A stretch of DNA of 32,000 nucleotides from Sinorhizobium meliloti (GCF_017876815.1 NZ_JAGIOS010000003.1:1440001-1472000), one strand, 5' to 3'. Positions 8,661 to 22,564 are shown, numbered from the stretch's first letter. A program made the numbers and translations. Notes: a model not told the origin generated them from the sequence alone.

Positions 8661-8668
8661 GTTAGGAA
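8661..8668. repeat. left copy of the 8-bp target-site duplication GTTAGGAA of the IS66 element
   Basis: It is identical to 11367-11374 and lies immediately outside the left IR. Confidence 0.9.
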
Positions 8669-8757
8669 GTAAGCGCCGTCTCCGCCCCATTGGATAGGCT
8701 GTATTTTGAGGCTGGCTGGGCGTGCGAGAAGGTTTCCAGGACTATCTGGAGATTTGC

Positions 8758-9204
8758 ATGGCAGATGATGGATTTGTTGGGCGCTACGAAGTTGTCGAGC
8801 CGCGCCGCGGAAACCGGCGTTGGCCCGATGATGTGAAGGCGCGGATTGTCGCGGAGAGCCTTGAGCCGGGTGTTCGAGTTGTTGATGTCGCGCGCCGTCA
8901 TGACGTTGTTCCGCACCAGCTTTCCTTCTGGCGTCGGCAAGCGCGCGAGGGCATTTTGGCGCTGCCTTTTGAGTCTATGCCGGGCCTATCGGAGAGCGGC
9001 GATGCCGAGCCTGCATTTGTGCCTTTGGCGATTGCGGCAGAGCCGAGCGAGGCTGTGAATGTTTTGGCGCCGCTGAAACTGCGGGAGGCGGTTTCGTCAG
9101 TCTTGACGCTCACGATCGGCCCGGACGTTGTGATGCGGGTTCCCGGCGATGTATCGGTTGAACGTGTGGCGGCCCTGGTGCGCGCCATTCGAGGGACGGC
9201 ATGA
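8758..9204 (+). CDS. tnpA: IS66-family accessory protein TnpA (orf1)
   Basis: Inner ATG 8758. It reads MADDGFVGRYEVVEPRRGNRRWPDDVKARIVAES...VARRHDVVPHQLSFWRRQAREG. Its stop overlaps the tnpB start (ATGA). Confidence 0.85.
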   Translation: MADDGFVGRYEVVEPRRGNRRWPDDVKARIVAESLEPGVRVVDVARRHDVVPHQLSFWRRQAREGILALPFESMPGLSESGDAEPAFVPLAIAAEPSEAVNVLAPLKLREAVSSVLTLTIGPDVVMRVPGDVSVERVAALVRAIRGTA

Positions 9205-9554
9205 TCGTCGCGGGCCAACGACTGCCGATCCTGGTTGCAACGCGGCCGGTGGACTTCCGCTGTGGGCATCAGGCGCTGGCTCTGATGATGCAGACCGAGT
9301 TGAAGCTCGACCCGCATTCCGGGGTGACGGTGATCTTCCGGTCGAAGCGCGGTGATCGTCTGAAAATCCTGGTATGGGATGGCACCGGCATGGTGCTAAC
9401 CTACAAAATTCTTGAACATGGAAGCTTTGCCTGGCCCAAGGTGCAGGATGGGACGATGCGTCTTTCCAGGGGGCAATACGAAGCTTTGTTCGAAGGTCTT
9501 GATTGGCGACGGGTCATGGCGCAACGGGTGACCGCGCCGTCGGCGGCAGGGTAA
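9201..9554 (+). CDS. tnpB: IS66-family accessory protein TnpB (orf2)
   Basis: 117 aa. It reads ...VATRPVDFRCGHQALALMMQTELKLDPHSGVTVIFRSKRGDRLKILVWDGTGMVL.YK.LE.G.F.WP. Confidence 0.9.
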   Translation: MIVAGQRLPILVATRPVDFRCGHQALALMMQTELKLDPHSGVTVIFRSKRGDRLKILVWDGTGMVLTYKILEHGSFAWPKVQDGTMRLSRGQYEALFEGLDWRRVMAQRVTAPSAAG

Positions 9555-9616
9555 ATATACGGCTGCCTTTGCATTGTTTTATTTGGCTTTTTTGTGCTGC
9601 CTTGCTATAAGGCCGC

Positions 9617-11269
9617 ATGTCGTCACCCCTTGATCTCAGCCTGTTTCCGAACCTTCCGCCCGAGGTGGTGAAGGCGTTTGCGGCGATGCAGTTCGAGCTG
9701 TCGGTCGAGCGTGCTGCACGTCAGCATGAGCAGGCTGTGGTTGCCGAAAAGGATGCGTTCATCGCCGAGCTGAAGGAACTGGTCGAGAAGCTTGAAGGTC
9801 AGGTTCACGACTATCGGCGCACGAAGTTCGGGCCGAAATCGGAAAAGCTCGATCCGGCGCAGATGGAACTGGCGCTGGAAGACCTTGAAACGGCAATTGC
9901 CGAAACACAGGCGCGGATTGCCGCCGTCGAGAAAAAGATCGAAGCCAGCGCATCTGATCCGGAAAAAGTCGCTCCTCGCAAGGAGCGTAAGGCCCGTGCA
10001 CTGCCCGAACATTTGCCGCGGGTCGAGCGGGTGATCGAGCCTGAGAGCATCGTTTGTCCCTGCGGTTGCGGCAACATGGTCCGGATCGGCGAAGACCGGA
10101 CGGAACGGCTCGACCGGATTCCGGCGCGCTACGAGGTGATCGTCACGATCCGCCCGAAATACGCCTGCCCCAAGGGTCGAACGGGCATCGTCCAGGCCAG
10201 AGCGCCGGCGCATCTCTTAGAAGGGAGCTGGCCGACCGAAGCCCTTCTGGCTGAGATTGCCGTCTCCAAGCATTCCGAACATATGCCGCTCAACCGGCAG
10301 GCCGAGGTCATGGCGCGACACGGGGTGCCGATAGACCGCACCGTCCTGGCCGATTGGATGGGCAGGACGGGTGCTGCGATCGCGCCGGTGGTCGACCATA
10401 TGGCCAAACGGCTGCTGTGGGAAAGCACGCGGCTTTATGTCGACGAGACAACGGCTCCGGTGCTTGATCCGGGGCGAGGCAAAACGAAGACCGGTTATCT
10501 ATGGGCCGTGTTGCGTGACGATCGCGGCTGGAATGGCTCTGCGCCGCCAGGCGTGGTGTTCCATTACCGGCCCGGGCGTAAAGGCGAATATGCCGCTGAA
10601 ATCCTCGACGGGTTTAACGGGACAATCCAAGTGGATGCCTACGGTGGTTACTCTCACCTCGCCACGTCGGACCGGGTGGGTGGCGATCCCTTGAGGCTGG
10701 CTTTCTGTTGGGCGCACGGGCGCAGAAAGCTGATCAAGGCCACGCCAAAGAGTGGATCGCCCATCGTCGACGAGGCGCTGGTGCGGATCGCCGCGCTCTA
10801 CAAGATCGAAGACAGCATCCGTGGCTCAGATCCCGAACATCGCCGGGCAGTTCGACAGGAGCTGTCCCTCCCGCTGGTGGACGCGTTCTTCACCTGGCTG
10901 GCAGCGCAAGCCAAGCGCATCTCACGCAAGTCTGACCTCGGAAAAGCCCTGGCCTATATGCTAACGCGGCAGGACGGCTTCCGGCTGTACCTGGACGACG
11001 GCCACGTCGATATCGACTCCAACCTGGTGGAAAACGCGATCCGCCGACCCGCCATGAACCGCCGCAATGCGCTCTTTGCGGGGCACGATGAAGGGGGCCG
11101 CAATTGGGCCCGGTTTGCCAGCCTGATCGGCACTTGTAAAATGAACGGCGTTGAGCCCTACGCCTATCTGTGCAACCTCTTCACCCGCCTCGCAAACGGC
11201 CACCTCGCCAAAGACATCGATGCCCTGATGCCATGGGCCTATGCCGCTCGCATCCAGGCCTCACAATGA
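9617..11269 (+). CDS. tnpC: IS66-family transposase TnpC
   Basis: 550 aa. It has a coiled-coil N-terminus, the zinc-finger-like motif CPCGCG...YACPKG, and the DDE body ...YVDETTAPVLDPGRGKTKTGYLW...QVDAYGGY...CWAHGRR... Confidence 0.95.
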   Translation: MSSPLDLSLFPNLPPEVVKAFAAMQFELSVERAARQHEQAVVAEKDAFIAELKELVEKLEGQVHDYRRTKFGPKSEKLDPAQMELALEDLETAIAETQARIAAVEKKIEASASDPEKVAPRKERKARALPEHLPRVERVIEPESIVCPCGCGNMVRIGEDRTERLDRIPARYEVIVTIRPKYACPKGRTGIVQARAPAHLLEGSWPTEALLAEIAVSKHSEHMPLNRQAEVMARHGVPIDRTVLADWMGRTGAAIAPVVDHMAKRLLWESTRLYVDETTAPVLDPGRGKTKTGYLWAVLRDDRGWNGSAPPGVVFHYRPGRKGEYAAEILDGFNGTIQVDAYGGYSHLATSDRVGGDPLRLAFCWAHGRRKLIKATPKSGSPIVDEALVRIAALYKIEDSIRGSDPEHRRAVRQELSLPLVDAFFTWLAAQAKRISRKSDLGKALAYMLTRQDGFRLYLDDGHVDIDSNLVENAIRRPAMNRRNALFAGHDEGGRNWARFASLIGTCKMNGVEPYAYLCNLFTRLANGHLAKDIDALMPWAYAARIQASQ

Positions 11270-11366
11270 GCTCGTCAGATACTCTTCGGTGAGCTCATTT
11301 GACGGCCCGTCGATCAACCTCAGATCGCCGCAACTGAATAATCGATGGGGCGTGGACGCCGCATAC

Positions 11367-11374
11367 GTTAGGAA
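11367..11374. repeat. right copy of the 8-bp target-site duplication GTTAGGAA
   Basis: It is identical to 8661-8668 and lies immediately outside the right IR. Confidence 0.9.
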
Positions 11375-11920
11375 CGCGCGTTGCGGAAACCATCTTGGCC
11401 AGTGGTCATGTGCGACCACACACAAAGGCCGTACATTTGGAAGCAAGCGATCCGACCAAAAATATCTGCAGAAAACCCTTGCAACAGGGAGCCGTCCACA
11501 TATGGAACTACGCCGCCTGAATGGCCGCGGCTTGTCGCTTACGCTTGCTCGCTATGGCAAGCCGGAGAGCTTGAACACCGACCAGGGCTCGCAGTTCACG
11601 TCCGCCGACTTGGCCGAGATCGACATTGTGATGGACGGCAAGGGCGCGTGGCGGGACAAGGTCTTCATCGAGCGGCTCTGGCGTTCGATCAAATACGAAG
11701 AGGTCTATCTCCACGCCTACAAAACCGTGTCCGAGGCCCGCGCTGGCATCGGCCGCTATCTGACTTACAATTGCCGACGCCCACATTCATCCCTTGACCA
11801 GCAGACGCCGGATCAGGCTTACTTCAACACGCTGACGCCGAGATGGCGGCAGCATAATCGAGGCGGAAATCCACTTAGCGAAAAGCCCCAAACTGTTCAG
11901 ATAAACCGAACCACCTCTAG
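11375..11920 (+). mobile_element. IS3-family orfB (transposase) 3' remnant. It probably continues on the other side of the IS66 element (~8576-8660).
   Basis: It reads ...ARYGKPESLNTDQGSQFTSADLAEIDIVMDGKGAWRDKVFIERLWRSIKYEEVYLHAYKTVSEARAGIGRYLTYNCRRPHSSLDQQTPDQAYF. There is an internal deletion between FTS and MDGKG. The upstream frames are degenerate (VVAVLGTRVAETILAS resembles the LVAVLDW..R.VL.W region). The right boundary is uncertain. Confidence 0.7.
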
Positions 11921-11983
11921 TTGGGCTCCTTCAAGAGCTCAGCCTTTCGTACAACATCGAGCGCATGCGCTGCGTGCGTAGGC

Positions 11984-13255
11984 TCATTTGCTAAGCCTCC
12001 TGGACTGGGATTTCGCCTTACCTGCAGTCGTCGAGCGGGAAGCCTGCGACACATAGATTGGGGGACGGCCCCAAACCTCGGATATGAGATCCATTACCTC
12101 CGCATTGACGGAATTCAGCGTTTCCATCGCTTGCTCGTATGCCGATCGGCCTACCGCTCCCGCTGACAGCTCATACAATGATCGATTTTTGAGCCGCGCT
12201 TCCCGGATCGCGTCTGATTCCCAGACGGTCGCAGTCAAGAGATCATCCCCCAGTGAGTCCCGCAGTAGGGCGACAGCCTCCTGCTGTGAGACGTCGCGCG
12301 GGTCGTGCCGTGTCACCAAGAATTTGGTGAAATACTTTACGGGCCTCTCAACTCGTTCGATCAGGGAGGCGCGATGCGACAAAACTCTGACGAACCAGGC
12401 CGTCGACGCGATCTCAGCCAATTGCGGGCGGACCGTCACCAGCAGGCCGGTCGCTGCTTCAAACGCACCCACAGTCAAGTAGCTGGGTTCAGGTGGACAG
12501 TGGATGACGACGACGTCGTAATTCGCCTCGACTTCCTTGATCGCAGACACCATTCTGACGCCAACATCTGGGTTCGTCGCGTCCTCATAGTGCCGCGAAC
12601 ACTCGAAGTCGAACTTGCTGAGCTCGAAAGAGCCCGGCACGAGACCAAGACCATCAAAAGGCGTCGGTCGGATTACCTCATTTATACTGGCCCGCAACGC
12701 GTCATTATAGCGCATCGCGGCATACATACTCACATCGCGGACGGGAAGTTTCGGGACTAAACCGAACATTTCCGACAATGAGCCCCTAGGATCGAGATCT
12801 ATTGCGAGAATGCGAAATCCTTGGAGTGCAAGGCCCTGAGCCAGATAGAACGCTGTAGTGGTTCTTGCGGAGCCGGCGGCCACTGAGATGATCTGTAGTT
12901 TCTCACCCTCGCGCCTCCGCGGGTAAAACTTCAAAGCCTCTTTCGGACGGGCCGAAGCGAGATAAGCACGCAGTTCATTGATTTGTCGAAGCGTATAGGA
13001 GCGTCGCCCTGCGGTCCCGAGCTCCGGTGTGGGTCCCAGACCATCGGTTGACAACTGCCGTAGATAACTGTCCGACACACCGAGAATCTCGGCGACCTCG
13101 CCCAACGAGAAAGAGCGCAAGGTCATGGGGTCTGGAAATGGATATTTGATAGCTACGCCAGACGCGCGTAAGCGATCGATGAGTTCTCTACCAAGACGCT
13201 CGATGCGTTCCGACTTTGTCTCGTCTTCATACGGCGGACTAACAGGTTTTGGCAT
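11984..13255 (-). CDS. RepA/ParA-like protein, copy 1. The HTH is conserved and the Walker A and Walker B motifs are degenerate.
   Basis: ORF 11984..13318. The likely start is ATG 13255, with GAGGA 5 nt upstream. The RepA-type HTH reads LRSFSLGEVAEILGVSDSYLRQLSTDGLGPTPELGTAGRRSYTLRQINELRAYL. The P-loop position reads LQIISVAAGSARTTTAFYLAQGLAL where xKGGSGKTT is expected. DLDPRGS is retained. Walker B reads YDVVVIHCPP (His where Asp is expected). The tail is ...SEVWGRPPIYVSQASRSTTAGKAKSQSRRLSK. Confidence 0.8.
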   Translation of the reverse strand: MPKPVSPPYEDETKSERIERLGRELIDRLRASGVAIKYPFPDPMTLRSFSLGEVAEILGVSDSYLRQLSTDGLGPTPELGTAGRRSYTLRQINELRAYLASARPKEALKFYPRRREGEKLQIISVAAGSARTTTAFYLAQGLALQGFRILAIDLDPRGSLSEMFGLVPKLPVRDVSMYAAMRYNDALRASINEVIRPTPFDGLGLVPGSFELSKFDFECSRHYEDATNPDVGVRMVSAIKEVEANYDVVVIHCPPEPSYLTVGAFEAATGLLVTVRPQLAEIASTAWFVRVLSHRASLIERVERPVKYFTKFLVTRHDPRDVSQQEAVALLRDSLGDDLLTATVWESDAIREARLKNRSLYELSAGAVGRSAYEQAMETLNSVNAEVMDLISEVWGRPPIYVSQASRSTTAGKAKSQSRRLSK

Positions 13256-13401
13256 AACGGTCCTCGCGACGGCTACTCTCCTGCATGTCGGTTTATCGCG
13301 TCGCGGTTCTTCTTGCACGTCTGAAAAAGCCTCGCAAGTCGCAACCGGATAGATTGTGGCGTGTCCATCTAGACCGATCAGCGCGCGCTCGATCTTCTCT
13401 A

Positions 13402-14574
13402 GTCACCTGGAACTAAAATTCACTACATTGTATGCTTGGCCTCTTCATTGGAGGTTGAGGCATGGCAAATGCGACTGGCCGACCAACGGCCCCATTGGTT
13501 TTGAGCGAGGCGGAGCGGGAATATCTGGAGCGACAGGTGCGCAAGCATCGTGTTGCACGCTCCCTGTCGGAGCGGTGCCGGATCATTCTTCGCTGTGGCG
13601 AGGGAGTTCCGAGCAAGGTCGTTGCGGACGAGCTCGGCGTGCATGAACATACGGTTGGCAAATGGCGACGGCGCTTCCTCAAAGACCGACTCGATGGGCT
13701 GCTCGACGAAGTTCGCCCTGGTCGGCCCCGAACCATCGACGACGATCAGATCGCGGCTGTGATCGAGCGCACGCTGCGTTCAACGCCAAGCGATGCGACC
13801 CATTGGTCGATCCGCTCGATGGCAGGGGCCACAGGCTTTTCGCACACGACGATCCGCCGGATATGGAACGCTTTCGGCCTGCAGCCGCATCGCACAGAGA
13901 CGTTCAAGCTTTCCGGCGATCCTTTGTTCGTCGATAAGGTCCGCGACATCGTCGGTCTTTATCTGTCACCTCCCAATCGGGCGCTGGTTCTCAGCGTGGA
14001 CGAGAAGAGCCAAATCCAGGCTCTCGACCGCGAGCAGCCAGTGTTGCCGATGATGCCCGGCGTGCCGGAACGGCGCACGCATTCCTATGTCCGACACGGC
14101 ACAACCACGTTGTTTGCCGCTCTGGATGTCGCCTCCGGCTTTGTCATCGGCAAATGCTACAAGCGGCACCGTGCCACCGAATTCCTGGATTTCCTCAAGC
14201 AGATCGATGCGAGCGTACCGTCCGATTTGGACGTTCATATCGTGATGGACTACTATGCGACCCACAAAACGGCATCGGTCAAAAACTGGCTGATGCGACG
14301 GCCGCGCTACCACGTGCACTTCACCCCGACCTCGGCGTCATGGATCAATCAGGTCGAACGCTGGTTTGCGGAACTGACCCGCAAGCAGCTCCGTCGCGGC
14401 GTCCGCACTTCGACAATGCAGCTCGAAGCCGACATCCGAAGCTTTCATCGAACGCCATAATCAGAACCCGAAGCCCTACAGGTGGACGAAATCCGCAGAC
14501 GACATCCTGGCCTCCGTCAAACGTTTCTGCCAGAAAGTCCAGGACTTATGACACGAATTTCGGATTCGGATGAC
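13402..14574 (+). mobile_element. IS630-family insertion sequence #1, inserted in the leader of RepA-like copy 1
   Basis: The IRs are GTCACCTGGAACTAAAATTC (from 13402) and the reverse complement of the right end, GTCATCCGAATCCGAAATTC. They are flanked by TA (13400-13401) and TA (14575-14576), the target duplication typical of IS630/Tc1. Confidence 0.8.
13462..14551 (+). pseudogene. IS630-family transposase with a frame change near its 3' end
   Basis: ORF 13462..14460 reads ...SVDEKSQIQALDR...HGTTTLFAALDV..G...HIVMDYYATHKT..V..WL...PRYHVHFTPTSASWINQVERWF. After ~14439 the family-typical end FIERHNQNPKPYRWTKSADDILASVKRFCQKVQDL* is read in the +1 frame, with the stop at 14549-14551. Confidence 0.8.
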
Positions 14575-14591
14575 TAGGTCGTAAACTCATA
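14575..14591. repeat. solo terminal repeat of the IS5/IS427-like element. It is a perfect 17-bp inverted copy of 16136-16152.
   Basis: TAGGTCGTAAACTCATA at 14575-14591 is the exact reverse complement of TATGAGTTTACGACCTA at 16136-16152. After 15 nt the sequence no longer matches the IS interior. Confidence 0.7.
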
Positions 14592-14596
14592 GCAAG

Positions 14597-15138
14597 CCCA
14601 CTTCTGGCGCTGGCGTGTAATTTCGCCTCTATCGAGTTTCGTGGAATACATGCTGCATTGTAGACGGGAATGATACTCGAGAAGTAACCGAGCAATTCCG
14701 ACAATGAGCCCTCGGATCGAAATCTATGGCGAGAACGCGGAATCCTTGAAGTGCAGGCCCTGAGCCAGATAGAACGATGTGGTGGTTCTTGCGGGGCCGG
14801 CGGCCAACTGGGATGATCTGTACTCACCCTCGCGCCTCCGCGGGTAAAACTTCCCAGCCTCTTTCGGACGGGCTGGAGCGCGATAAGCACGAAGTTCGTT
14901 GATCCATCGAAGCGTATAGGAGCGTCGACCTGCGGTCCTTAGCTCCGGTGTTGGCCCCAGACCATCGATTGACAACTGGCGCAAATAACTCTGCGACATA
15001 CTGAAATCTCGGCGACCTGTCCGAACGAGAGAGAGCGGAAGGTCATGTGGTTTGGAGATGAATATACCCGCGCGCGCGTTCCCAGAGCTCTTTGCAGTCA
15101 GACGGGGGAAGAGCAAGTTGTTGAATTTTGCTCATCAT
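14597..15138 (-). pseudogene. decayed 5' half of a RepA-like gene (unit 3)
   Basis: ATGATG lies at 15138-15133 (MMSKIQQLALPPSDCKELWERARGYIHL..). The sequence continues ...SQSYLRQLSIDGLGPTPELRTAGRRSYTLRWINELRAY.APARPKEAGKFYPRRREGE...LAAGPARTTTSFYLAQGL, with stops and frame changes. Nucleotide similarity to copies 1 and 2 is visible up to the DLD-coding region. The upstream leader (to 15297) is shared with unit 4. Confidence 0.7.
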
Positions 15139-15299
15139 GACGGATTGTGTCCAATATCGAGAAATATTCCGTCGCGGTTTAATCTCTCTGTCCGTGCCAG
15201 TCAACGGCCCGTGAGCATTTTGCCGCTACCAAACTTACCGGCTCCCTCGGTGCCGCCTTTCGTCAGCCTCGTTGAAGCTTTGTTTTTATTTCCCTTTTA

Positions 15300-16150
15300 G
15301 GGCGTCGACTCATAAACTTTGACACCATATCCTCGCGGCGATGAGCTTGACCGCGGCGAGGTAGTTTCCCGGGTGCTTATCGTATCGGGTTGCGATGCCT
15401 CGGAACTGTTTGATCCTATTGAAGAACCGCTCCACGAGGTTCCGCTGCCGATAGACCTAGCGCGAGAAAACGAGATGACCCTTCCGGTTGGACTTCGGCG
15501 GGATGTTGGTTCAGGCCATTCGCTCGGCGGCCTTGGCCCGGATGGCATTACTGTCGTAGCCCTTGTCCGCCAGCAGGATGTCTCCCTCGCCGAGCTCGTC
15601 CGTCAGCGCGTCGGCCTCGGTGCAGTCGGCGATCTGCCCGCCGGTCAGACGGAGGTTGACGGGGCGACCTTCGGCGTCGACACGCGCGCGTGGATTTTGC
15701 TCGTGAGCCCGCCACGGGAACGTCCCATGCCGCCATCGTCTCCATCCCCCTTTTTCCCGTGGCCGCGTGCTGGTGAACGCGGACACAGTTTGAGTCGATC
15801 ATGACGATGTCGCCATCGTAAGCCTCGGAAGCGGCTTCAAGAAGCCGATCCCAGACACCGGCCTTCCGCCAGCGGACGAAACGGTTGTAGCAGGTGGTCG
15901 GCGGACCATAGCGCTCCGGAATTTCCGCCCAGGGCGAGCCCGTGCGAAACCGCTAGAGGATGCCATTCGGCACCCGCCGATCCTCGACGCGGGGAACACC
16001 CCGCGGTTTGTTGGGCAACAGCGGCGACAGGATTGACCATTCGTGGTCGGTGAGTTCGTAGCGGCGGCGCGTCATTCCAAGGCTCCCTCATTCGGAAGCC
16101 TTGAATCATCGGCGCGACTAAACAACAAGTGATTTTATGAGTTTACGACC
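15300..16150 (-). mobile_element. IS5-family (IS427-like, two-ORF) insertion sequence, inactivated
   Basis: The IRs are GGGCGTCGACTCATAAAC (15300->) and the reverse complement of the right end, GGTCGTAAACTCATAAAA, flanked by TA/TA (15298-99 and 16151-52). The coding region 16075..15310 reads MTRRRYELTDHEWSILSPLLPNKPRGVPRVEDRRVPNGIL*RFRTGSPWAEIPERYGPPTTCYNRFVRWRKAGVWD...MIDSNCVRVHQHAATG / KKGDGDDGGMGRSRGGLTSKIHARV / DAEGRPVNLRLTGGQIADC...DKGYDSNAIRAKAAERMA*TNIPPKSNRKGHLVFSR*VYRQRNLVERFFNRIKQFRGIATRYDKH... Confidence 0.8.
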
Positions 16151-17420
16151 TAGACCTCTTAGATTGGGATTTCGCCTTACCTGCAGTCGTCGAGCGCGAA
16201 GCCTGCGACACATAGATCGGGGGACGACCCCAAACCTCCGATATGATATCCATCACCTCGGCATTGACGGAATTCAGCGTTTCCATCGCTTGCTCGTATG
16301 CCGATCGGCCTACCGCTCCCGCTGATAGCTCATACAGCGATCGATTCTTGAGCCCCGCGTATCCTATCGCATCCGATTCCCAGACGATGGCAGTCAAGAG
16401 ATCATCACCCAGGGAGCCCCGCAGCAGGGCGATCGTCTCCTGCTCTGCGACGTCACGCGGGTCGTGCCTTGTCACCAAGAATTTGAAAAAATCATAATCT
16501 TCGGACTTCCCAGCTTCTTCGATCCTGCGGACGTATTCCGAGAAAATGCTGAGGGACATGGCCGTTGACGCGACATCATCCAATTGCGGGTGGACTGTAA
16601 CCAGCACGCCGGTCGCTGCTTCAAGCGCAACCGGGCCTAAGCCGTCGCGTACAGGTGCACCGGCAATAACGACGACATCGTAATTGCCCTCGACTTCCTC
16701 GATCGCAGACACCAGTCTCGAGTTAGCATCTGGGTTCCTCGAGGCCCCGCTGAGGTAGCGCCGCAAGCGTTCCTCCTCGAACCGGCGGAGCTCGATACTG
16801 CCCGGCACGATATCAAGACCATCAAAATGCGTCGGTCGGATTACAGTCCTAATACTGGCCCGATCGTCATCACAGCGTAACGCGGCATATATGCTTTTAT
16901 TGTAGACCGGCGTCGTACTGGCGGTGTAACCGAACATTCCCGAGAATGAGCCTCGCCTATCAAGATCTACAGCGAGAACACGGAATCCTTGAAGTGCAAG
17001 GCCCTGAACCAGATAGAATGCTGTAGTGGTACTTGCGGAGCCGCCTACTGAGATAATCTGTAGTTTCTCACCCTCGCGCCTCCGCGGGTAAAACTTTAAA
17101 GCATCTTTCGGACGGGCCGAAGCGAGATAAGCACGAAGTTCGTTGATTTGTCGAAGCGTATAGGAGCGTCGCCCTGCGGTCCCTAGCTCCGGTGTTGGCC
17201 CCAGACCATCAATTGACAACTGGCGCAGATAACTGTGCGACACACCGAGGATCTCGGCGACCTCGCCCAAGGAGAAGGAGCGCAAGGTCATGGGGTCTGG
17301 AAATGGAAAGTCGATAGCTACGCCAGAGGCGCGTACGCGATCGAAGAGTTCTTTGGCCCGACGCCGGATGCGTTCCGACGTTCTCTCCTTTTCATGCGGC
17401 GGACTAACAGTTTGTGGCAT
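16143..17420 (-). CDS. RepA/ParA-like protein, copy 2. The HTH is conserved and the Walker A and Walker B motifs are degenerate.
   Basis: ORF 16143..17588. ATG 17420 (MPQTVSPPHEKERTSERI...) is equivalent to the copy-1 start. The HTH is as in copy 1. The P-loop position reads LQIISVGGSASTTTAFYLVQGLAL. DLDRRGS is present. Walker B reads YDVVVIAGAP. The C-terminal ~110 aa are almost identical to copy 1. The last two codons and the stop lie inside the IS5-like terminal repeat. Confidence 0.8.
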   Translation of the reverse strand: MPQTVSPPHEKERTSERIRRRAKELFDRVRASGVAIDFPFPDPMTLRSFSLGEVAEILGVSHSYLRQLSIDGLGPTPELGTAGRRSYTLRQINELRAYLASARPKDALKFYPRRREGEKLQIISVGGSASTTTAFYLVQGLALQGFRVLAVDLDRRGSFSGMFGYTASTTPVYNKSIYAALRCDDDRASIRTVIRPTHFDGLDIVPGSIELRRFEEERLRRYLSGASRNPDANSRLVSAIEEVEGNYDVVVIAGAPVRDGLGPVALEAATGVLVTVHPQLDDVASTAMSLSIFSEYVRRIEEAGKSEDYDFFKFLVTRHDPRDVAEQETIALLRGSLGDDLLTAIVWESDAIGYAGLKNRSLYELSAGAVGRSAYEQAMETLNSVNAEVMDIISEVWGRPPIYVSQASRSTTAGKAKSQSKRSRS

Positions 17421-17694
17421 AACGGGTCCCGCGAAGGCTATTCTCCAGCATGTAGGTTTATTGCCACGGCCCTTCTTGCACGTCTGAAAACGCCGCGCAA
17501 GTCGCAACCGGATAGATTGTGGCGGGTCCACCGCACAATCTAGTCCGATCAGCGCGCGCTCGATCTTCCCTAGGGTTGATTTGCGCATGTACGAAGCCAG
17601 TTTCCCGCTGCGCCCCGTGGAACATTTCTGCCGGTATGAGTGAGTGTGTCACAGCCCGAGCGTTGACATCTATTGGGGCCCGACCCGCAGCTTG

Positions 17695-18021
17695 TTATGC
17701 GGCGAGTAGATAAGAGTTCCTTTTTCGCGCGCTACTCACACCATTGCAGCATCCCGCGGACGAAAGCAGAAGCTCGGCGCGACATCCCGCATGGGCGAAT
17801 GAACCTTGAGCCGACTGGTGATCCTCGGTCCGAACGCGGCCGGTGCGCTGGGCAAAGCGTAAAAGCTCGACCGTGGACCATGGCTTGCGCGAATGCTGAA
17901 CCGCAAACAACCCAGATTGGCGGCCCGGCCAACAAAGATGGGTTGCATCGTCCGGCGGAACGCATTGCAAGTCAGCAAGAGCGCCGGCCGCAACAGCGGC
18001 AAATGTGAGCCAGAGCCTCAT
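17695..18021 (-). CDS. possible small secreted protein (108 aa), or a non-coding ORF
   Basis: Inner ATG 18021 gives MRLWLTFAAVAAGALA|DLQCVPP..., a signal-peptide-like N-terminus. I recognise no family, several overlapping ORFs compete, and third-position G+C is only moderate. Confidence 0.2.
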   Translation of the reverse strand: MRLWLTFAAVAAGALADLQCVPPDDATHLCWPGRQSGLFAVQHSRKPWSTVELLRFAQRTGRVRTEDHQSAQGSFAHAGCRAELLLSSAGCCNGVSSARKRNSYLLAA

Positions 18022-18052
18022 ATCGGTGGAAACCGCCGGGTCAGCTCTCAGC

Positions 18053-18742
18053 CTAAAGCTTCGACAATGTCTCCAACCAACTCTCTTTCGTATTCCCGGC
18101 ACGACGATTGCCTTCCAGCACAAGCTTGGGAACAGTGCTAATCATTGCACTGAATTGCCGATCAACATTTGCGATCGCCGCATCGTTGTCTCGCTTATCA
18201 AGAAGCTCCAGAAGCTCGCTCATGTCATCTCTGATACATGAGAGACGCTCCGGCTGGTGCAAGTCCAACCAACGAATGTATCTCGTCCGAACGTTGTACT
18301 CATGCACGAGGTCCCGCATTATTCTGTTGTTCGAAGCCTTCGCGATACGTTCGTAAAAAGACTGTTGGAACTCCCTGATCAAGTCGTAGTCGGTCCAGCT
18401 GGGAAGAACTACAAACGTAGAGTGCTCATACAGGTTTTCTCTGAACACATGCTTGAGCACCATCATAATAAAATCAAGTTGATCCGACAGTTTCTGTGGA
18501 TCAAGCTTCTTGGTGTAGTAGCCATTGTTGAATAAGCTCATGATGTATTCTTCTATTTCGAGCTGAATCAGTACCTCGCGCACAGGGACAACGCTCGTAT
18601 TCATGACGTTGCTGATCCGGACAGCATAGAGTCGCGTACAGGGGGGGACCTCACAATTGACGATAATCTTCTTGAGTGCTTTATACACTTTGCCGACCTT
18701 GGACTCGTCCCATCCTAGTTTATGTTCGTGGCGACTATACAT
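18053..18742 (-). CDS. GntR-family (FadR/FCD-like) transcriptional regulator, AT-rich gene
   Basis: ATG 18742 is preceded by GGAGGAGAAGGC. The wHTH reads VYKALKKIIVNCEVPPCTRLYAVRISNVMNTSVVPVREVLIQLEIEEYI, followed by an all-helical C-terminal domain. A hand count of 18401-18460 gives 25/60 G+C, against 35/60 at 20401-20460. Confidence 0.65.
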   Translation of the reverse strand: MYSRHEHKLGWDESKVGKVYKALKKIIVNCEVPPCTRLYAVRISNVMNTSVVPVREVLIQLEIEEYIMSLFNNGYYTKKLDPQKLSDQLDFIMMVLKHVFRENLYEHSTFVVLPSWTDYDLIREFQQSFYERIAKASNNRIMRDLVHEYNVRTRYIRWLDLHQPERLSCIRDDMSELLELLDKRDNDAAIANVDRQFSAMISTVPKLVLEGNRRAGNTKESWLETLSKL

Positions 18743-18794
18743 GCCTTCTCCTCCGCGCATAGTTTCTGTTGTTCAAAGAAGTCTGGGGCTGCAG

Positions 18795-19213
18795 CCCGCT
18801 TCTGGCGCTGGCGTGTAATTTCTCCTCTGTCGCGTACCGCGGAATACTCGAGAAGTAACCGAACATGTCCGACAATTAGCCGTACGGATCGAGATCTCCG
18901 GCGGTGACGCGTAATTTTTTGCAGTGCGAAGGCTCTGAGAACGATGTGGTGGTGCGGAGCCGGAGGCTACGAGATGATCTGTGATTTCTTGGCCTCGCGC
19001 CGCCACGGGCAAAACTGCAAAGCCTTCTTCGCACGGGCCGAAGCGGAATAACGTTCGTTTGTGTCGCAAGACGCATCCTGACGGTGTTTGAGCTGCATGT
19101 TGATAAACATCCGTCACGATGTAGACTCGCTTCTCCGTGCCAGTCAACCGAAACTTACGGCTTTATCGGAGCGCCTTTCGTCAGCCTCATTGAACTCTTG
19201 TGTTTATTTCCCT
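18795..19213 (-). pseudogene. heavily decayed 5' part of a RepA-like gene plus leader (unit 4)
   Basis: It is collinear at nucleotide level with unit 3. The shared motifs are CTTCTGGCGCTGGCGTGTAATTTC..., ...TCGAGAAGTAACCGA.CA..TCCGACAAT.AGCC... and ...CCGTGCCAGTCAAC...CGCCTTTCGTCAGCCTC.TTGAA..TTGT.TTTATTTCCCT. The frames are broken throughout. Confidence 0.55.
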
Positions 19214-19289
19214 CACAGTCAGCTGCGGAGTTGTCGCTTGGCACTTATATGTGAGAATGCGGCTGTTTCAGCCGAATGTGGCATTAAAG

Positions 19290-19642
19290 ATGAGAATCCA
19301 ACGGGTGGGATGCGCAAAATAACTGCACTGGGAAGACGCCACCGAACGGCATGTATGGGGCATGATCTCCTCAATAGCGCTGCTGAATCGCACTTGATTC
19401 TGACCCATCATTTTCGCACGCCTCATCATGAGCATCACTGGTCCAGCCCGCTCGAGATGGATACTCCGGCTAGCAGAGCTGATCGCAGATGGAACACCCT
19501 CCATCTCGGCCATGCAATCGCAGAGCGCCGGAATGAAGGACTTGATGTGCCGCCCGAACTTCTGGCGCATATCTCTCCACTGGGTTGGGCACACATATTA
19601 CTGACCGGCGAATATCTCTGGCCTAACGGAGAAACGGCTTAG
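19290..19642 (+). pseudogene. tnpA: 3' remnant of a Tn3-family transposase gene (tnpA)
   Basis: The end of ORF 19088..19642 reads ...RWNTLHLGHAIAERRNEGLDVPPELLAHISPLGWAHILLTGEYLWP. This is the characteristic Tn3-family C-terminus (WNT.YL...LSPLGWEHINLTGDY.W). The upstream frames are degenerate. Confidence 0.7.
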
Positions 19643-19660: not shown

Positions 19661-21262
19661 GCCGGAACCGACCCCTCTCTGTACCGCAGCGAAAGCGGCC
19701 GCGCCGTGTTCGCGGTGCAAGGTGATGCGGGCGCGGTCACCGCAATCGCCAGCGGCATTTCCTTCGACGACCATGGCGACATCGATGTCGAGGCGCCGAA
19801 GCTGACGGGCGCCGAGATCGTCGGCCAAAAGCCCTCCCACTTGGTCGAGCACGACGGCGAGTTCGCGGCTTTTTTCGACGGGGAAGGTGTCGCCCGCATC
19901 ATCTCCGAGAAAGCGGTGTTGCAGGGCAAGTCAGACTTCCGGGAGGTAAAGACCGACGCACCGCAGCACGGCGTCGCCGTCGCCTATGGCTCCCATGTCC
20001 TTCTGTCGGAGCCGAACAGGGAGAAGCCCGACGAACTCCCGGTCGGCATCAGGACGGTTGACAAGGCCCGCACGCAGGTCGGCGACATCGCTGAATGCCC
20101 CGACCTCCACGGCGAGGCCTCTTCGGGAAACATTCTGGCCTTCGCCTGCGCGACCGGTCTGCTCGTCGTCACGCATGGAGAAAGCGCGTCGGACATCCGC
20201 CATCTGCCCTATGCGGATTCTTTGCCGGACGGCAAGTCGACCACGCTGATCGGTGGCCGGGGACTGCAGTATTTCCTCGGCAATTACGGTCCCGACAAGG
20301 TCGTTCTGATCGATCCGACGGCTGAGAGCGACGCCTTCCGCCTGATCGAGTTGCCGACGCGGCGCGTGCACTTTGCCGTCGATCCGGTGAGGCCGAAGTT
20401 CGCCTACGTCTTCACCGAGGATGGCCAGCTTCACCAGCTCGATATCGTCGCCGGTAAGATTGCCAATTCGCTCAAGCTGACCGATCCCTATTCGGTGGAC
20501 GGTCACTGGAACGATCCGCGCCCGCGCATCGCCGTGGCAGGGGACAACGTCGTCGTGACCGACCCGCTGGCAGGCAAGCTCCATCTCGTGTCGGCGGGAT
20601 CGTTCACCAGGACCGGCGAGATCGCCGTGGAGGGCAAGCCCTTCAACATCGTGGCCGTCGGCGGAAGCGGCAAGGTCCACGATCACACAGCTGAGAAAGT
20701 TCACGCACATAGCCACGATCCGGCGGTCCAGCAGATCTACAAGGGCCACTTTGAGGACAACCAGGTCCAGGATCGAACCCTGTCGGACTGGGCTGGCGAT
20801 TGGCAGTCGGTCTATCCCTACCTGAAGGATGGAACGCTCGATCCAGTCATGGCGCACAAAGCGGAGAGCGCCGACCAGAGCGCCGACGAGTACCGGGCCT
20901 ATTACGAGATCGGCTATCGAACTAACGTCGAGCGGATCAAGATCGATGGCGACACAGTGACCTTTTTCGAGGGCGAGAAGCCGCTCGAAGCCCGCTATGT
21001 CAGCGACGGCTATGAGATCCTGACCTACGAGAAGGGCAACCGTGGCGTGCGCTTCATCTTCAAGAAGTCCGACGGTGACGCGGACGCTCCGGAATTCATC
21101 CAGTTCAGCGACCACAAAATCGCGCCCGAGGCGGCCGACCATTATCACCTCTACTGGGGAAATGATCGTGCGGCCCTGCTGGAAGAAGTGACGAACTGGC
21201 CGACCTACTACCCGTCTTCGCTGAGCGCGAAGCAAATTGTCGAAGAGATGATAGCGCACTGA
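19661..21262 (+). CDS. aztD: periplasmic zinc chaperone fusion with an AztD-like beta-propeller and a C-terminal ZinT domain. It is 5'-truncated by the Tn3-family end.
   Basis: The frame is open from 19643. It reads ...[36 protein letters not shown]...[17 protein letters not shown]...[11 protein letters not shown]...[28 protein letters not shown]...[11 protein letters not shown], which is AztD-like from memory. The signal peptide and the first ~70 aa are absent. A His-rich linker [14 protein letters not shown] follows. Then comes [27 protein letters not shown]...[11 protein letters not shown]...HYHLYWGND...WPTYYP...VEEMIAH, which matches E. coli ZinT closely. The first in-frame start is GTG 19706. 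Confidence 0.75.
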
Positions 21263-21283
21263 CCGTTGCGCTCCTCTTCGCCT

Positions 21284-21316
21284 GCGCCCGGCCTTCACGG
21301 TCGGGCGCCCCTTTTT
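21284..21316 (+). terminator. candidate rho-independent terminator after aztD-zinT
   Basis: GCGCCCG (21284-90), an 11-nt loop, CGGGCGC (21302-08), then CCC and T5 (21312-16). Confidence 0.5.
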
Positions 21317-21339
21317 CGCCATTAAACCCCGAGGCACCC

Positions 21340-22564
21340 ATGCTTGACACAGCCAAATCCTCCAATCGCCTGCCCGTCACTGTCCTCTCCGGCTTCCTCG
21401 GCGCCGGCAAGACGACACTTCTCAACCACGTGCTGAACAATCGCGAGGGCCGCCGGGTCGCCGTCATCGTCAACGACATGAGCGAGGTCAACATCGATGC
21501 CGCGCTGGTTCGCGATGGTGGCGCAAACCTTTCGCGCACCGACGAAAAACTCGTGGAGATGACCAATGGCTGCATCTGCTGCACATTGCGCGATGACCTC
21601 TTGCAGGAAGTGCGTCGCCTCTCAGAAGATGGTCGGTTCGACTATTTGCTGATCGAGGGCACTGGAATTGCCGAGCCGCTGCCGGTCGCCACCACCTTCG
21701 ACTTCCGCGACGAGAATGGCGAGAGTCTCTCGGACGTCTCCCGCCTCGATACGATGGTCACCGTTGTCGATGCCGCCAATCTGCTGAAGGATTATTCCTC
21801 CCACGATTTCTTGCGCGACCGCGGCGAGGTGGCCGGTGAAGCCGATGATCGCGCCTTGGTCGATCTTCTGGTCGAGCAGATCGAATTCGCCGACGTCATC
21901 GTGCTCAACAAGGTTTCCGACACGCCCGCGAGTGATCTCGATCTCGCTCGTAAGATCGTGCGTTCGCTCAATCCCGACGCCGAACTGATCGAGACGGACT
22001 TCGCTCAGGTCCTGCTGGACAAGGTTCTAAACACAGGCCGTTTCGATTTCGAGAAGGCCGAGCAACATCCGCTCTGGTTCAAGGAGCTGAACGGCTTCAA
22101 GGACCACGTCCCCGAGATCGAAGAATACGGCATCCGCTCCTTCGTCTACCGCGAGCGTCGCCCCTTCGATCCGATGAAGCTCAAGGCCTTCATCAACAAG
22201 TCCTGGCCCGGCGTTGTGCGAGCGAAGGGCTTCTTCTGGTTGGCAACGCGTCCGCACTATGTCGGCGAAATCAGCCAGGCTGGTGCGCTCATTCGAACGG
22301 GCAAGCGTGGCCTCTGGTGGGCGTCAGTTCCAAAGCCGCAATGGCCGGATCATCCCGAGTGGAAGGCCGCCATGAAGCCGTATCTCGATCCTATCTGGGG
22401 CGACCGAAGGCCAAGAGATCGTCTTCATCGGCTGCGACCCGATGGATGAACGCCAGATCCGCGTCGAACTCGATGCCTGCCTCGTCAAGGAAAAGAACTT
22501 CATACCCGGCCACTGGCGCGATCTTCCGGATCCGTTCCCGAGCTGGGAGAGGCAGGCTGGATGA
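21340..22564 (+). CDS. COG0523-family (CobW/ZigA/YeiR-like) GTPase metallochaperone with a 1-nt frame change near 22411
   Basis: It carries the P-loop [12 protein letters not shown], the metal motif [11 protein letters not shown], and ...IEGTGIAEP... The listed ORF ends at 22449 after ..DPIWGDRR. The family-typical continuation [50 protein letters not shown] is in the +1 frame, with the stop at 22562-22564. Confidence 0.85.

What the first reader, a model, noticed from the sequence alone, without database searches (positions are those of the whole stretch)
11984..19213. Four RepA/ParA-like units; the two full-length copies are ATPase-dead but keep long open frames, and there is no repB or repC
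Seen in the sequence: ORFs 11984..13255 and 16143..17420 (both minus) carry the RepA-type N-terminal HTH (LRSFSLGEVAEILGVS.SYLRQLS.DGLGPTPELGTAGRRSYTLRQINELRAYL) and the RepA-like C-terminus. The deviant Walker A position, xKGGSGKTT in ParA/RepA, reads VAAGSARTT in copy 1 and VGGSASTT in copy 2. Both signature lysines are lost and the loop is shorter. The Walker B VIDCPP reads VIHCPP in copy 1 and VIAGAP in copy 2. Both ORFs nevertheless stay open for more than 420 codons in a region where most neighbouring genes are broken. Their 5' and 3' thirds are near-identical at nucleotide level, while the centres have diverged (mosaic or gene-conversion pattern). Two further decayed 5' halves (14597-15138 and 18795-19213) lie in the same orientation. 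No repB, repC, antisense ctRNA locus or parS-like 16-mer is present. Established knowledge: RepA of repABC replicons is a ParA-type ATPase that also acts as autorepressor and incompatibility determinant. Inference: these may be retained pseudo-ATPase derivatives that act only through DNA or RepB binding, as regulators, incompatibility or exclusion factors, or partition decoys. Alternatively they are slowly decaying relics of tandem duplication.
Basis: partly seen in the sequence, partly recalled or inferred. Interest (0 to 1): 0.7.

Follow-up and report, generated by a model that had tools for sequence, protein, structure and literature searches.

The report
RepA-derived DNA-binding proteins without ATPase site
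Two genes annotated as plasmid-partition ATPase RepA belong to a widespread rhizobial plasmid lineage that has lost the ATP-hydrolysing site but keeps its DNA-binding parts under selection, so they are probably DNA-binding regulators and not partition motors or dead genes.

Summary
The window (S. meliloti SM11 pSmeSM11c) has two full-length RepA-like ORFs (11984-13255 and 16143-17420, minus strand) and two truncated copies. I found no repB, repC, ctRNA or parS.

The degenerate P-loop is not local decay. About 64 protein clusters from Sinorhizobium, Rhizobium, Neorhizobium and Mesorhizobium share four derived features:
- a 3-residue deletion that removes the signature lysine;
- loss of the Walker A lysine in most members;
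- loss of the Walker B aspartate;
- a new conserved C-terminal tail.

With the motif columns removed, the clade is monophyletic in 200/200 bootstraps. Members never have repB or repC beside them.

Selection is modular. ω is 0.18 for the HTH plus linker, 0.35 for the C-terminal part and 0.76 for the ATPase core, with similar dS throughout. The divergent centre therefore reflects relaxed constraint, not gene conversion. Neutral drift would keep a frame this long open with P of about 1e-3 or less per pair. Some members elsewhere are frameshifted.

The truncated copies carry the clade's conserved leader. One of them sits in front of a GntR gene, and that arrangement is conserved across genera.

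Best reading: these are nucleotide-independent, operator-binding derivatives of a type Ia ParA. The function is untested.

The parts
11984..13255 (-). Copy 1. Full-length RepA-derived pseudo-ATPase, 423 aa, deposited as AEH81356 'Replication protein RepA'. P-loop VAAGSARTT, Walker B VIHCPP, conserved HTH, clade-specific C-terminal tail.
13265..13305 (-). Copy 1 leader inverted repeat CGCGACGC-N25-CCGTCGCG, lying between the upstream region and the start codon. Candidate operator or leader hairpin. GAGG Shine-Dalgarno follows.
13462..14460 (+). IS630-family transposase (DDE_3 plus HTH domains). It occupies the position that the GntR gene holds in unit 2 and in relatives.
14595..15295 (-). Fragment 1, a truncated and frameshifted pseudo-repA. 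Coding remnant about 14640-15060 (gene nt 116-540). It keeps the clade leader: 19-nt box 15255-15273, -35-like GTTGAC 15193-15205, inverted repeat 15136-15176.
16143..17420 (-). Copy 2. Full-length RepA-derived pseudo-ATPase, 425 aa, deposited as AEH81360. P-loop VGGSASTT, Walker B VIAGAP. At least 11 distinct intact alleles of this type occur in S. meliloti isolates.
17513..17542 (-). Perfect 9+9 bp palindrome TAGATTGTG-N12-CACAATCTA, 93-122 nt upstream of the copy 2 start. Found only upstream of copy-2-type genes (SM11, ml46, RCAM1750). Copy 1 keeps only one good arm, at 13350-13371.
18053..18760 (-). GntR/FCD-family regulator, 235 aa, upstream of copy 2 on the same strand. Intact and in the same arrangement in S. 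meliloti, S. medicae and R. indigoferae, and nearby in Mesorhizobium AR02.
18793..19213 (-). Fragment 2, a truncated pseudo-repA. Coding remnant about 18793-19051 (aa 97-168, frameshifted). It keeps the clade leader: 19-nt box 19173-19191, -35-like 19136-19148, inverted repeat 19077-19118. It ends 33 nt before the GntR start codon. The whole arrangement is conserved in relatives.

Best explanation
Copies 1 and 2 belong to a single, fairly young lineage derived from the RepA partition ATPase of repABC plasmids, and that lineage is spreading horizontally. (RepA is a type Ia ParA: an N-terminal winged HTH joined to a ParA/MinD-fold ATPase.)

Shown:
- The lineage has lost the ATPase active site: deletion of NFK including the signature lysine, loss of the Walker A lysine in most members, and loss of the Walker B aspartate.
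- It has lost its partners repB, repC and parS.
- It has gained a conserved basic C-terminal tail of about 25 residues.
- The HTH plus linker and the C-terminal region are under purifying selection. The ATPase core evolves almost freely but stays in frame and is still predicted to adopt the ParA fold.

Inferred mechanism:
- The protein is a nucleotide-independent dimer that keeps only the site-specific, operator-binding (repressor) activity of a type Ia ParA. Canonical ParA and RepA show that activity in the apo or ADP state.
- It can no longer switch to the ATP-bound state that binds nonspecific DNA and drives partition.
- Its likely targets are conserved elements of the clade's own leader: a 19-nt box, and an inverted repeat CGTGACGG-N26-CCGTCACG between a -35-like GTTGAC and the start codon.

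In this window:
- That leader also survives on the two truncated copies. One of them now sits directly in front of a GntR/FCD regulator gene, an arrangement conserved across genera. The GntR gene is therefore probably expressed from, and controlled through, a captured pseudo-repA leader.
- Unit 1 is the same module with an IS630 element in place of GntR.
For: Active-site loss is clade-wide.
- P0001-P0062, P0087 and P0113 all lack NFK. Most lack the Walker A Lys and the Walker B Asp. Canonical neighbours P0063-P0120 are intact.
- The profile alignment to Soj confirms the register.
- In the AF2 model the loop between strand 121-127 and helix 130-143 is reduced to about 2 residues, and the core still folds (pTM 0.73, core pLDDT 80-90). 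Foldseek gives ParA/Soj at target-normalised TM about 0.8 and type Ia ParAs at query-normalised TM about 0.6.

Single origin.
- The pseudo/canonical split has 200/200 bootstrap support with motif columns removed.
- The clade collapses into one 50%-identity representative (797 bits), and the best canonical hit scores 341 bits or less.

Retention.
- Median ω over 12 intact members: HTH plus linker 0.18, C-terminal part 0.35, ATPase core 0.76, N-terminal leader peptide 0.89. dS is similar everywhere, 0.23-0.45.
- Neighbouring genes give a local baseline ω of 0.13-0.58.
- Copy 1 versus copy 2, Fisher test: N-terminal part p=0.023, C-terminal part p=2e-6, centre p=1.
- P(no stop | neutral) is 2e-4 to 1.2e-3 per pair.
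- About 55 of the 60 listed plasmid tblastn hits are single uninterrupted pieces.
- At least 11 intact 425-aa alleles of the copy 2 type occur on about 240 contigs. Of 33 variable positions, none lies in the 76-residue HTH plus linker.
- The HTH and C-terminal entropies equal those of canonical RepA. The C-terminal tail is conserved in the clade and absent from canonical RepA.

Solitary genes. No repB or repC lies within about 6 kb in L006-L010 and L015-L019.

Mechanistic precedent.
- F ParA binds its promoter equally well and specifically in the apo and ADP forms, and is a dimer without nucleotide (PMC8465637).
- Rhizobial RepA dimerises without nucleotide, binds its operator specifically in the ADP form and nonspecific DNA in the ATP form (PMC4492784).

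Cis elements.
- The 19-nt box has none expected by chance. It lies 99-121 nt upstream of intact clade genes in four genera and upstream of both fragments and of GntR.
- The leader inverted repeat is 79% complementary, against 20-50% when one arm is slid.
- The same layout occurs in a canonical repA leader.
- The fragment-then-GntR arrangement is conserved in L002, L003, L004, L016 and L017.
Against: - No transcript, protein, DNA-binding or phenotype data exist for any member in the searched literature.
- The ATPase core has ω 0.76, and 1.05 for copy 1 versus copy 2. Copy 2 versus its nearest alleles gives ω about 0.95. This is compatible with weak or recently relaxed selection on the SM11 copies.
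- Frameshifted members exist: three of the four loci from the annotation-independent genome scan and about 5 of 60 plasmid hits.
- The leader inverted repeat shows no significant covariation (57/500 shuffles reach the observed score). It is degenerate upstream of copy 2. The 19-nt box is absent upstream of copies 1 and 2 themselves.
- The copy 2 palindrome is restricted to one subgroup.
- From memory, not checked here: in P1 ParA some Walker A mutants lose repressor activity, so operator binding without nucleotide is not guaranteed.
- Copy 1 and some other members keep an Arg at the Walker A Lys position, so residual nucleotide binding cannot be excluded for them.
Confidence: 0.55

Rival explanations
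1. Trans-acting plasmid-competition factor. The protein targets true repABC replicons and not its own leader. It would bind their operators or titrate their RepA or RepB, and so act as an incompatibility, exclusion or copy-number determinant against co-resident or incoming plasmids.
For: - The HTH is nearly the same as in the closest canonical RepA group.
- The clade leader repeat has the same layout as a canonical repA leader (GACGG-N25-CCGTT), so operator cross-recognition is plausible.
- 61 of 68 host plasmids are conjugative.
- Fast protein evolution (whole-gene ω 0.55, GntR partner 0.6-0.7) and recent spread between genera (low dS) fit a conflict gene.
- RepA-operator specificity is thought to underlie the coexistence of repABC plasmids (PMC4492784).
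Against: - The HTH is invariant across hosts that carry different resident repABC plasmids, whereas canonical RepA-operator pairs are plasmid-specific (PMC4492784).
- No parS or repABC operator is linked to the gene.
- The ATPase core, where a RepB partner would act, is the least constrained region.
- No experimental data.
Confidence: 0.22
2. Slowly decaying relics. The ORFs are non-functional remnants of repABC operons or duplications, and have stayed open by chance or through annotation bias.
For: - The central block has ω of about 0.8-1.05, and copy 2 versus its nearest alleles gives about 0.95.
- The region is rich in IS elements and has truncated copies alongside.
- Frameshifted members occur in R. 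ruizarguesonis and Ensifer USDA 6670 and in about 5 of 60 plasmid hits.
- Protein databases list only open ORFs.
Against: - The clade is monophyletic with shared derived features, including a gained and conserved C-terminal tail.
- HTH ω is 0.18 and C-terminal ω 0.35, at the same dS as the core.
- P(no stop | neutral) is about 1e-3 or less per pair.
- About 90% of DNA-level hits are uninterrupted.
- Many intact alleles exist within S. meliloti, and none varies in the HTH.
- Synteny is conserved between pRL10 and S. meliloti plasmids.
Confidence: 0.13
3. Still a working nucleotide-dependent partition or positioning ATPase with an unorthodox active site, using an unlinked ParB-like partner.
For: - The Walker A' aspartates (IDLD) and several core motifs remain conserved.
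- Copy 1 and some other members keep Arg at the Walker A Lys position.
- The ParA fold is retained.
Against: - The signature Lys is deleted in all members. The Walker A Lys is Ser, Thr or Gly in most. The Walker B Asp is replaced by His, Ala, Ser or Arg.
- The core is 3-8 times more variable than in canonical RepA and has ω 0.76.
- No ParB-like gene or parS lies nearby in any locus.
Confidence: 0.04

Closest known systems
RepA of repABC replicons (NCBIfam TIGR03453; type Ia ParA of alphaproteobacterial plasmids)
   Same: 54-58% identity to the nearest canonical RepA. Same N-terminal HTH, linker and ParA fold. The leader has a related inverted-repeat layout. Both copies score just above the family cutoff (370 and 364 bits versus 348).
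   Different: The NFK deletion removes the signature Lys. The Walker A Lys and Walker B Asp are lost. A conserved C-terminal tail of about 25 aa has been added. The gene always stands alone, without repB, repC, the repB-repC ctRNA or parS. The ATPase core is under relaxed constraint.
Repressor mode of type Ia ParA proteins (F ParA/SopA, P1 ParA)
   Same: A winged HTH plus a ParA-fold dimer. Apo or ADP forms bind widely spaced inverted motifs in the promoter (PMC8465637). The parts conserved in this clade are those needed for that activity.
   Different: F and P1 ParA are active ATPases that alternate between repressor and partition modes and work with ParB and parS. This clade would be fixed in the nucleotide-free mode and has no partner genes.
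[quoted passage not shown] 2020, PMC7276703)
   Same: Very probably the same genes. They are solitary repA homologues on R. leguminosarum plasmids, and the paper counts them as 4 of 24 repA sequence groups.
   Different: They are mentioned in one sentence as a nuisance for plasmid typing. The paper gives no motif, selection, phylogenetic or functional analysis. I did not verify identity with this clade sequence by sequence.
ParA/MinD-fold proteins used as regulators or scaffolds (e.g. FleN/FlhG, TadZ/CpaE with atypical Walker A) - recalled from memory
   Same: A ParA/MinD fold used for regulation or localisation and not for DNA segregation. Some have atypical nucleotide sites.
   Different: These are different subfamilies without the type Ia N-terminal HTH. 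FleN and FlhG are active ATPases. None derives from RepA. The comparison is a recollection, apart from the fold-level similarity.

Membership tests
RepA partition ATPase of repABC (TIGR03453) | Whole-protein match above the curated cutoff | tested here: met
   369.8 and 363.8 bits against a cutoff of 348.45. The margin is small. The related PRK13869 model is not reached (313 and 311 bits against 446).
RepA partition ATPase of repABC (TIGR03453) | Deviant Walker A xKGGxxK[ST] with both lysines | tested here: not met
   VAAGSARTT (copy 1) and VGGSASTT (copy 2), against ANFKGGSAKTT in canonical RepA. The profile alignment to Soj 6iub confirms the register.
RepA partition ATPase of repABC (TIGR03453) | Walker B aspartate (VIDCPP) | tested here: not met
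   VIHCPP and VIAGAP. Across the clade the position is His, Ala, Ser or Arg.
RepA partition ATPase of repABC (TIGR03453) | Encoded in an operon with repB and repC, with a ctRNA between repB and repC | tested here: not met
   tblastn with RepB and RepC gives E of 0.7 or worse across the window. No Rfam ctRNA match. No repB or repC next to 12 other clade members.
RepA partition ATPase of repABC (TIGR03453) | Linked parS centromere (GTTNNCNGCNGNNAAC-type palindrome) | tested here: not met
   No match at up to 1 mismatch in the window. The consensus used comes from general knowledge of repABC parS sites.
Type Ia ParA (large ParA with N-terminal HTH) | N-terminal HTH domain followed by a ParA/MinD alpha/beta fold | tested here: met
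   MerR-type HTH plus AAA_31/CbiA in Pfam. AF2 model pTM 0.73. Foldseek: V. cholerae ParA2 7npd TMq 0.61, P1 ParA 3ez2 TMq 0.59, Soj/ParA cores TMt about 0.8.
Type Ia ParA (large ParA with N-terminal HTH) | ATP binding and hydrolysis that drive partition | not testable with these tools
   The motifs predict loss. Confirming it needs biochemistry.
Pseudogene (non-functional relic) | Frameshifts or premature stops relative to family members | tested here: not met
   Copies 1 and 2 are full length, with family-typical start and stop. The feature is met for the two fragments and for some members elsewhere.
Pseudogene (non-functional relic) | Neutral evolution (ω about 1) along the whole gene | tested here: not met
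   Whole-gene ω 0.55, HTH 0.18, C-terminal part 0.35. Only the ATPase core (0.76) and the N-terminal leader peptide (0.89) approach 1.
GntR/FCD transcription regulators (partner gene 18053-18760) | N-terminal GntR winged HTH plus C-terminal FCD domain | tested here: inconclusive
   FCD scores 35.3 bits (cutoff 24.3), so it is met. GntR HTH scores 20 bits (cutoff 27), below the cutoff. RefSeq annotates the orthologues as GntR family.

The most novel reading that the evidence does not exclude
This is a horizontally mobile family of ParA-fold transcription factors that never bind nucleotide, descended from a plasmid partition ATPase. The family is used in plasmid-plasmid conflict or in control of symbiosis plasmids. 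It would silence or tune rival repABC replicons, or a small regulon that includes the captured GntR gene. Its fast-evolving core and N-terminal dimerisation helix would be under diversifying selection to avoid mixing with resident RepA proteins. Together with the sporadic independent P-loop losses seen in other RepA lineages, this would make conversion from motor to repressor a recurrent route of innovation for type Ia ParA proteins.
Probability: 0.15. Interest if true: 0.8.

Novelty: new variant of a known kind. Interest (0 to 1): 0.6.

Why it matters
Biology. If the reading is right, this is a natural separation-of-function experiment on a type Ia ParA. Evolution has removed the motor and kept the repressor, in a lineage that moves between rhizobial genera on conjugative and symbiosis plasmids. 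It gives a direct way to ask what the nucleotide-free state of a ParA can do. It also raises the question of whether such proteins take part in incompatibility or regulation among the many repABC replicons that share a rhizobial cell.

Practical consequence, already visible. Annotation pipelines name these genes 'plasmid partitioning protein RepA'. They inflate counts of repA groups (PMC7276703). Some finished plasmid records have been rotated to start at this gene although no repB or repC follows. A simple filter would prevent mis-typing of replicons: the NFK deletion, or absence of KGGxxK[ST], together with the C-terminal tail.

Tried and rejected
- Genome-collection scan with copy 2. It returned only 4 loci because the back-translated patterns were too specific. 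They served as a small annotation-independent sample and nothing more.
- Sigma-70 promoter and terminator scan of 11900-19400. Counts equalled the shuffled expectation, so it was uninformative.
- Copy 2 palindrome TAGATTGTG-N12-CACAATCTA as a clade-wide operator. Rejected, because it occurs only in the copy 2 subgroup.
- Covariation in the leader inverted repeat. Not significant, so I claim no RNA structure or compensatory evolution.
- Gene conversion as the cause of the conserved ends. Rejected, because dS is similar in all regions.
- Obligatory GntR partnership. Rejected, because GntR accompanies only part of the clade.
- Defence-system membership. PADLOC gave only a weak generic HTH hit.
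- repB or repC downstream of the copies placed at coordinate 1 of some plasmid records. None present.
- Antisense ORFs (for example 12084-12482 and 16243-16497 on the plus strand) as the reason the frame stays open. They differ in length between the copies and are typical of GC-rich DNA, so I did not pursue them.
- Literature searches for functional or expression data. They found only a one-sentence mention of isolated repA-like genes, and proteome detection of a neighbouring gene (pRL100106). Several searches were swamped by unrelated terms (phaC2, 'repair').
- S. meliloti 1021 pSymA was not among the listed hits, so I could not reach its large expression datasets.

Full report
**Source and observation**

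The window is identical to Sinorhizobium meliloti SM11 megaplasmid pSmeSM11c (NC_017327.1), at about 225-257 kb.

- Both match the RepA equivalog TIGR03453 only just above its cutoff (370 and 364 bits against 348). Both carry a MerR-type HTH followed by an AAA_31/CbiA domain.
- tblastn with a canonical RepA from a complete repABC operon (L005) finds four RepA-like segments. Two are full length. Two are partial: 14999-14701 (aa 59-162) and 19050-18855 (aa 97-168).
- The RepB and RepC of that operon find nothing better than E=0.7 in the 32 kb.
- No Rfam family for the repABC antisense RNA matches. The parS-type palindrome GTTNNCNGCNGNNAAC has no match at up to one mismatch.

**The motif changes are real and define a clade**

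Canonical RepA reads ANFKGGSAKTT at the deviant Walker A and VIDCPPQ at Walker B. Copy 1 reads VAAGSARTT and VIHCPP. Copy 2 reads VGGSASTT and VIAGAP.

- Orthologues in other S. meliloti strains, and a roughly 70%-identical one in S. medicae, carry the same kind of lesion and are full length.
- A search of 5.8 billion protein clusters gave about 64 clusters with the lesion (P0001-P0062, P0087, P0113). They come from S. meliloti, S. medicae, at least ten Rhizobium species and Neorhizobium galegae. Loci and plasmid hits add Mesorhizobium.
- All of them lack the three residues NFK, which removes the signature lysine. Most also lack the Walker A lysine and the Walker B aspartate. They are 403-434 aa long.
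- The next hits (P0063 onward, 54-58% identity) are ordinary 402-aa RepA proteins with intact motifs.
- A profile of the clade aligned to H. pylori Soj places SVA---AGSASTTT opposite AVANQKGGVGKTTT.
- With the P-loop and Walker B columns removed, the clade separates from canonical RepA in 200 of 200 neighbour-joining bootstraps.
- In an exhaustive HMM search of 1.84 billion representatives, the clade collapses into one 50%-identity cluster (797 bits). The best canonical RepA scores 341 bits or less.
- The clade has a further shared derived feature. Canonical RepA ends at ...VWGR. Clade members continue with a conserved basic tail of about 25 residues, PPxYVSxASRSTTAGKAKSQS.

**The gene always stands alone**

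None of the twelve clade members I examined outside the window has repB or repC within about 6 kb.

- One paralogue group is syntenic between R. johnstonii 3841 pRL10 and S. meliloti megaplasmids. In both it lies next to Fe-ADH and class III PHA synthase genes.
- By megablast the clade occurs on 68 plasmid records: 41 Rhizobium, 25 Sinorhizobium, 1 Mesorhizobium, 1 Neorhizobium. 61 of them are typed as conjugative.
- Some finished plasmid records start at this gene, as if it were the replicon's repA, yet nothing like repB or repC follows.
- Both SM11 genes are deposited as 'Replication protein RepA'.

**Selection**

I used Nei-Gojobori estimates on 12 intact members, with 61-63 informative pairs per region.

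| Region | Median ω |
|---|---|
| Whole gene | 0.55 |
| First ~43 codons | 0.89 |
| HTH plus linker | 0.18 |
| ATPase core | 0.76 |
| C-terminal part | 0.35 |

- Median dS is similar in all regions (0.23-0.45).
- Neighbouring genes on the same plasmids give a local baseline ω of 0.13-0.58. The HTH and the C-terminal part are therefore constrained like ordinary functional genes, and only the ATPase core is relaxed.
- For copy 1 versus copy 2, the deficit of non-synonymous change is significant in the N-terminal part (p=0.023) and the C-terminal part (p=2e-6). It is absent in the centre (p=1).
The ends look near-identical because amino-acid change is selected against there. Synonymous divergence is the same along the gene.
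- Copies 1 and 2 (dS 0.28) are not recent duplicates. Copy 1 is closer to Mesorhizobium genes (dS 0.17-0.18).
- Simulated neutral substitution at the observed divergences leaves the frame free of stops in only 0.02-0.12% of trials per pair.
- At the DNA level, about 55 of the 60 best plasmid tblastn hits are single uninterrupted pieces.
- Within S. meliloti the copy 2 type exists as at least 11 distinct full-length alleles on about 240 contigs. Their 33 variable positions include none in the 76-residue HTH plus linker, where about 5.9 would be expected (P about 0.0015).

Against this:
- Three of the four loci from the small annotation-independent genome scan are frameshifted.
- Copy 2 versus its nearest alleles gives ω of about 0.95, on about 40 substitutions.
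- So decay does occur in the family. Selection on the SM11 copies themselves cannot be shown separately.

**Structure**

An AlphaFold2 model of copy 2 built on the clade alignment has pTM 0.73 and pLDDT 80-90 through the ATPase core.

- It keeps the alternating strand-helix order of the ParA fold.
- Only about two residues link strand 121-127 to helix 130-143, where canonical proteins have the phosphate-binding loop.
- Foldseek matches ParA/Soj cores at TM about 0.8 (normalised to the target). It matches the full-length type Ia proteins V. cholerae ParA2 and P1 ParA at TMq about 0.6.

**The surrounding module**

The two 'decayed 5' halves' are truncated copies that keep the clade's complete leader.

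- A 19-nt box, AATGAGGCTGACGAAAGGC, lies at 15255-15273 and 19173-19191. None is expected by chance.
- The same box lies 99-121 nt upstream of intact clade genes in S. meliloti, R. leguminosarum, Mesorhizobium and R. indigoferae.
- After the box comes an invariant GTTGAC, then an inverted repeat CGTGACGG-N26-CCGTCACG, a GAGG Shine-Dalgarno and the start codon.
- The repeat is 79% complementary across 14 leaders, against 20-50% when one arm is slid. Covariation is not significant.
- A canonical repA leader has the same layout, GACGG-N25-CCGTT. The element is therefore probably inherited from the repABC control region.
- Fragment 2 ends 33 nt before the start codon of a GntR/FCD regulator (18053-18760).
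- The arrangement of fragment, then GntR, then full-length gene is conserved in other S. meliloti strains (95% identity), S. medicae and R. indigoferae. In Mesorhizobium AR02 the GntR gene is near the fragment but not adjacent to the full gene.
- The GntR gene is intact in all five lineages and evolves fast (ω 0.58-1.03).
- In SM11 unit 1, an IS630 transposase (13462-14460) occupies the GntR position.
- Copies 1 and 2 have a different upstream region. Copy 2 has a perfect 9+9 palindrome at 17513-17542, restricted to its subgroup. Copy 1 keeps only one good arm.

**Mechanism**

Shown:
- loss of the catalytic motifs;
- a single origin of the clade;
- loss of the partner genes;
- modular constraint along the gene;
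- a retained predicted fold;
- conserved leader elements.

Established by others:
- F ParA binds its promoter specifically and equally well in the apo and ADP forms, and is a dimer without nucleotide (PMC8465637).
- Rhizobial RepA proteins dimerise independently of nucleotide. They bind their own operator in the ADP form and nonspecific DNA in the ATP form (PMC4492784).

Inferred:
- A RepA that cannot bind or hydrolyse ATP would stay permanently in the operator-binding state.
- The regions kept under selection here (HTH, linker, C-terminal part) are the ones that state needs.
- I therefore read these proteins as dedicated site-specific DNA-binding regulators. The most likely target is the clade's own leader, including the copy of it that now precedes GntR.

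Main rival: the same DNA-binding activity directed at true repABC operons, as an incompatibility or competition factor. The evidence does not separate the two. Plain decay and residual ATPase function are much less likely.

**Novelty**

The genes are in the databases under the RepA name.

- I found no description of the shared active-site loss, the C-terminal tail, the selection pattern or the leader elements in the searchable literature.
- That library lacks most subscription-journal papers, including the main repABC reviews.
- I class this as a new variant of a known kind.
- A few other RepA representatives show independent P-loop degeneration. I did not follow them up.

Noticed in passing
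window 5817-5948 (-): Sub-threshold match to the alphaproteobacterial sRNA family ar35 (RF02346): 36.8 bits against a gathering score of 45, E=0.0013, over the full model length. A weaker overlapping SorX match is also present.
   Followed up: no
window 19706-22449 (+): Just beyond fragment 2 lies a 518-aa protein with a C-terminal ZinT/YodA zinc-recruitment domain, followed by a CobW/COG0523-type GTPase. This looks like a zinc-homeostasis pair and is unrelated to the RepA-like units.
   Followed up: no
P0155, P0165, P0174, P0182, P0184, P0216, P0245: Several full-length representatives of other RepA lineages also have degenerate Walker A loops, while most keep the Walker B Asp. Loss of the ATPase site may be recurrent in the RepA family.
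   Followed up: no
CP140962.1 and NZ_CP140966.1, coordinate 1 (L018, L019): Finished plasmid records are rotated to start at the pseudo-repA gene although no repB or repC follows. The RepA annotation of this clade appears to mislead the choice of replicon origin, and probably replicon typing too.
   Followed up: partly
L013 and L014 (R. ruizarguesonis Vaf-46 plasmid CP171850.1, 112-124 kb and 396-408 kb): The same plasmid carries two copies of a clade member in opposite orientation. Both are frameshifted (one and two frameshifts) and share the first frameshift.
   Followed up: partly
L012 (Ensifer sp. USDA 6670) and P0057: A frameshift at about codon 86 fuses the clade gene to an upstream ORF. 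The result is a 604-aa predicted protein with a PF13714 domain hit, which is an annotation artefact of a broken copy.
   Followed up: partly
L015 (pRL10 100.5-106.8 kb) and L007/L008 (S. meliloti): One paralogue group is syntenic across genera, next to Fe-ADH and class III PHA synthase phaE/phaC. The adjacent hypothetical protein pRL100106 is detected in pea bacteroid proteomes (PMC7900000, PMC7105596).
   Followed up: partly
Related loci L002-L017, several genes: Synonymous divergence between Sinorhizobium, Rhizobium and Mesorhizobium copies of this gene and its neighbours is low (dS 0.08-0.6). This suggests recent horizontal spread of these plasmid regions among symbionts of mostly galegoid legumes (Medicago, Pisum, Lens, Trifolium, Galega, Oxytropis, Sulla).
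   Followed up: partly
window 2971-5127: A PaiB-like FMN-binding regulator and a divergently placed MocR-type (GntR HTH plus aminotransferase) regulator. The same pair lies upstream of the single GntR/repA-like module in S. meliloti RCAM1750 (L003). SM11 therefore appears to differ mainly by IS insertions and by the extra unit 1.
   Followed up: no
window 7236-11981 and 15319-16109: A cluster of IS elements and remnants flanks the units: an IS30-like element (HTH_38 plus rve), an intact 550-aa IS66 transposase, an rve_3 fragment and an IS5-type DDE_Tnp_1 fragment.
   Followed up: no
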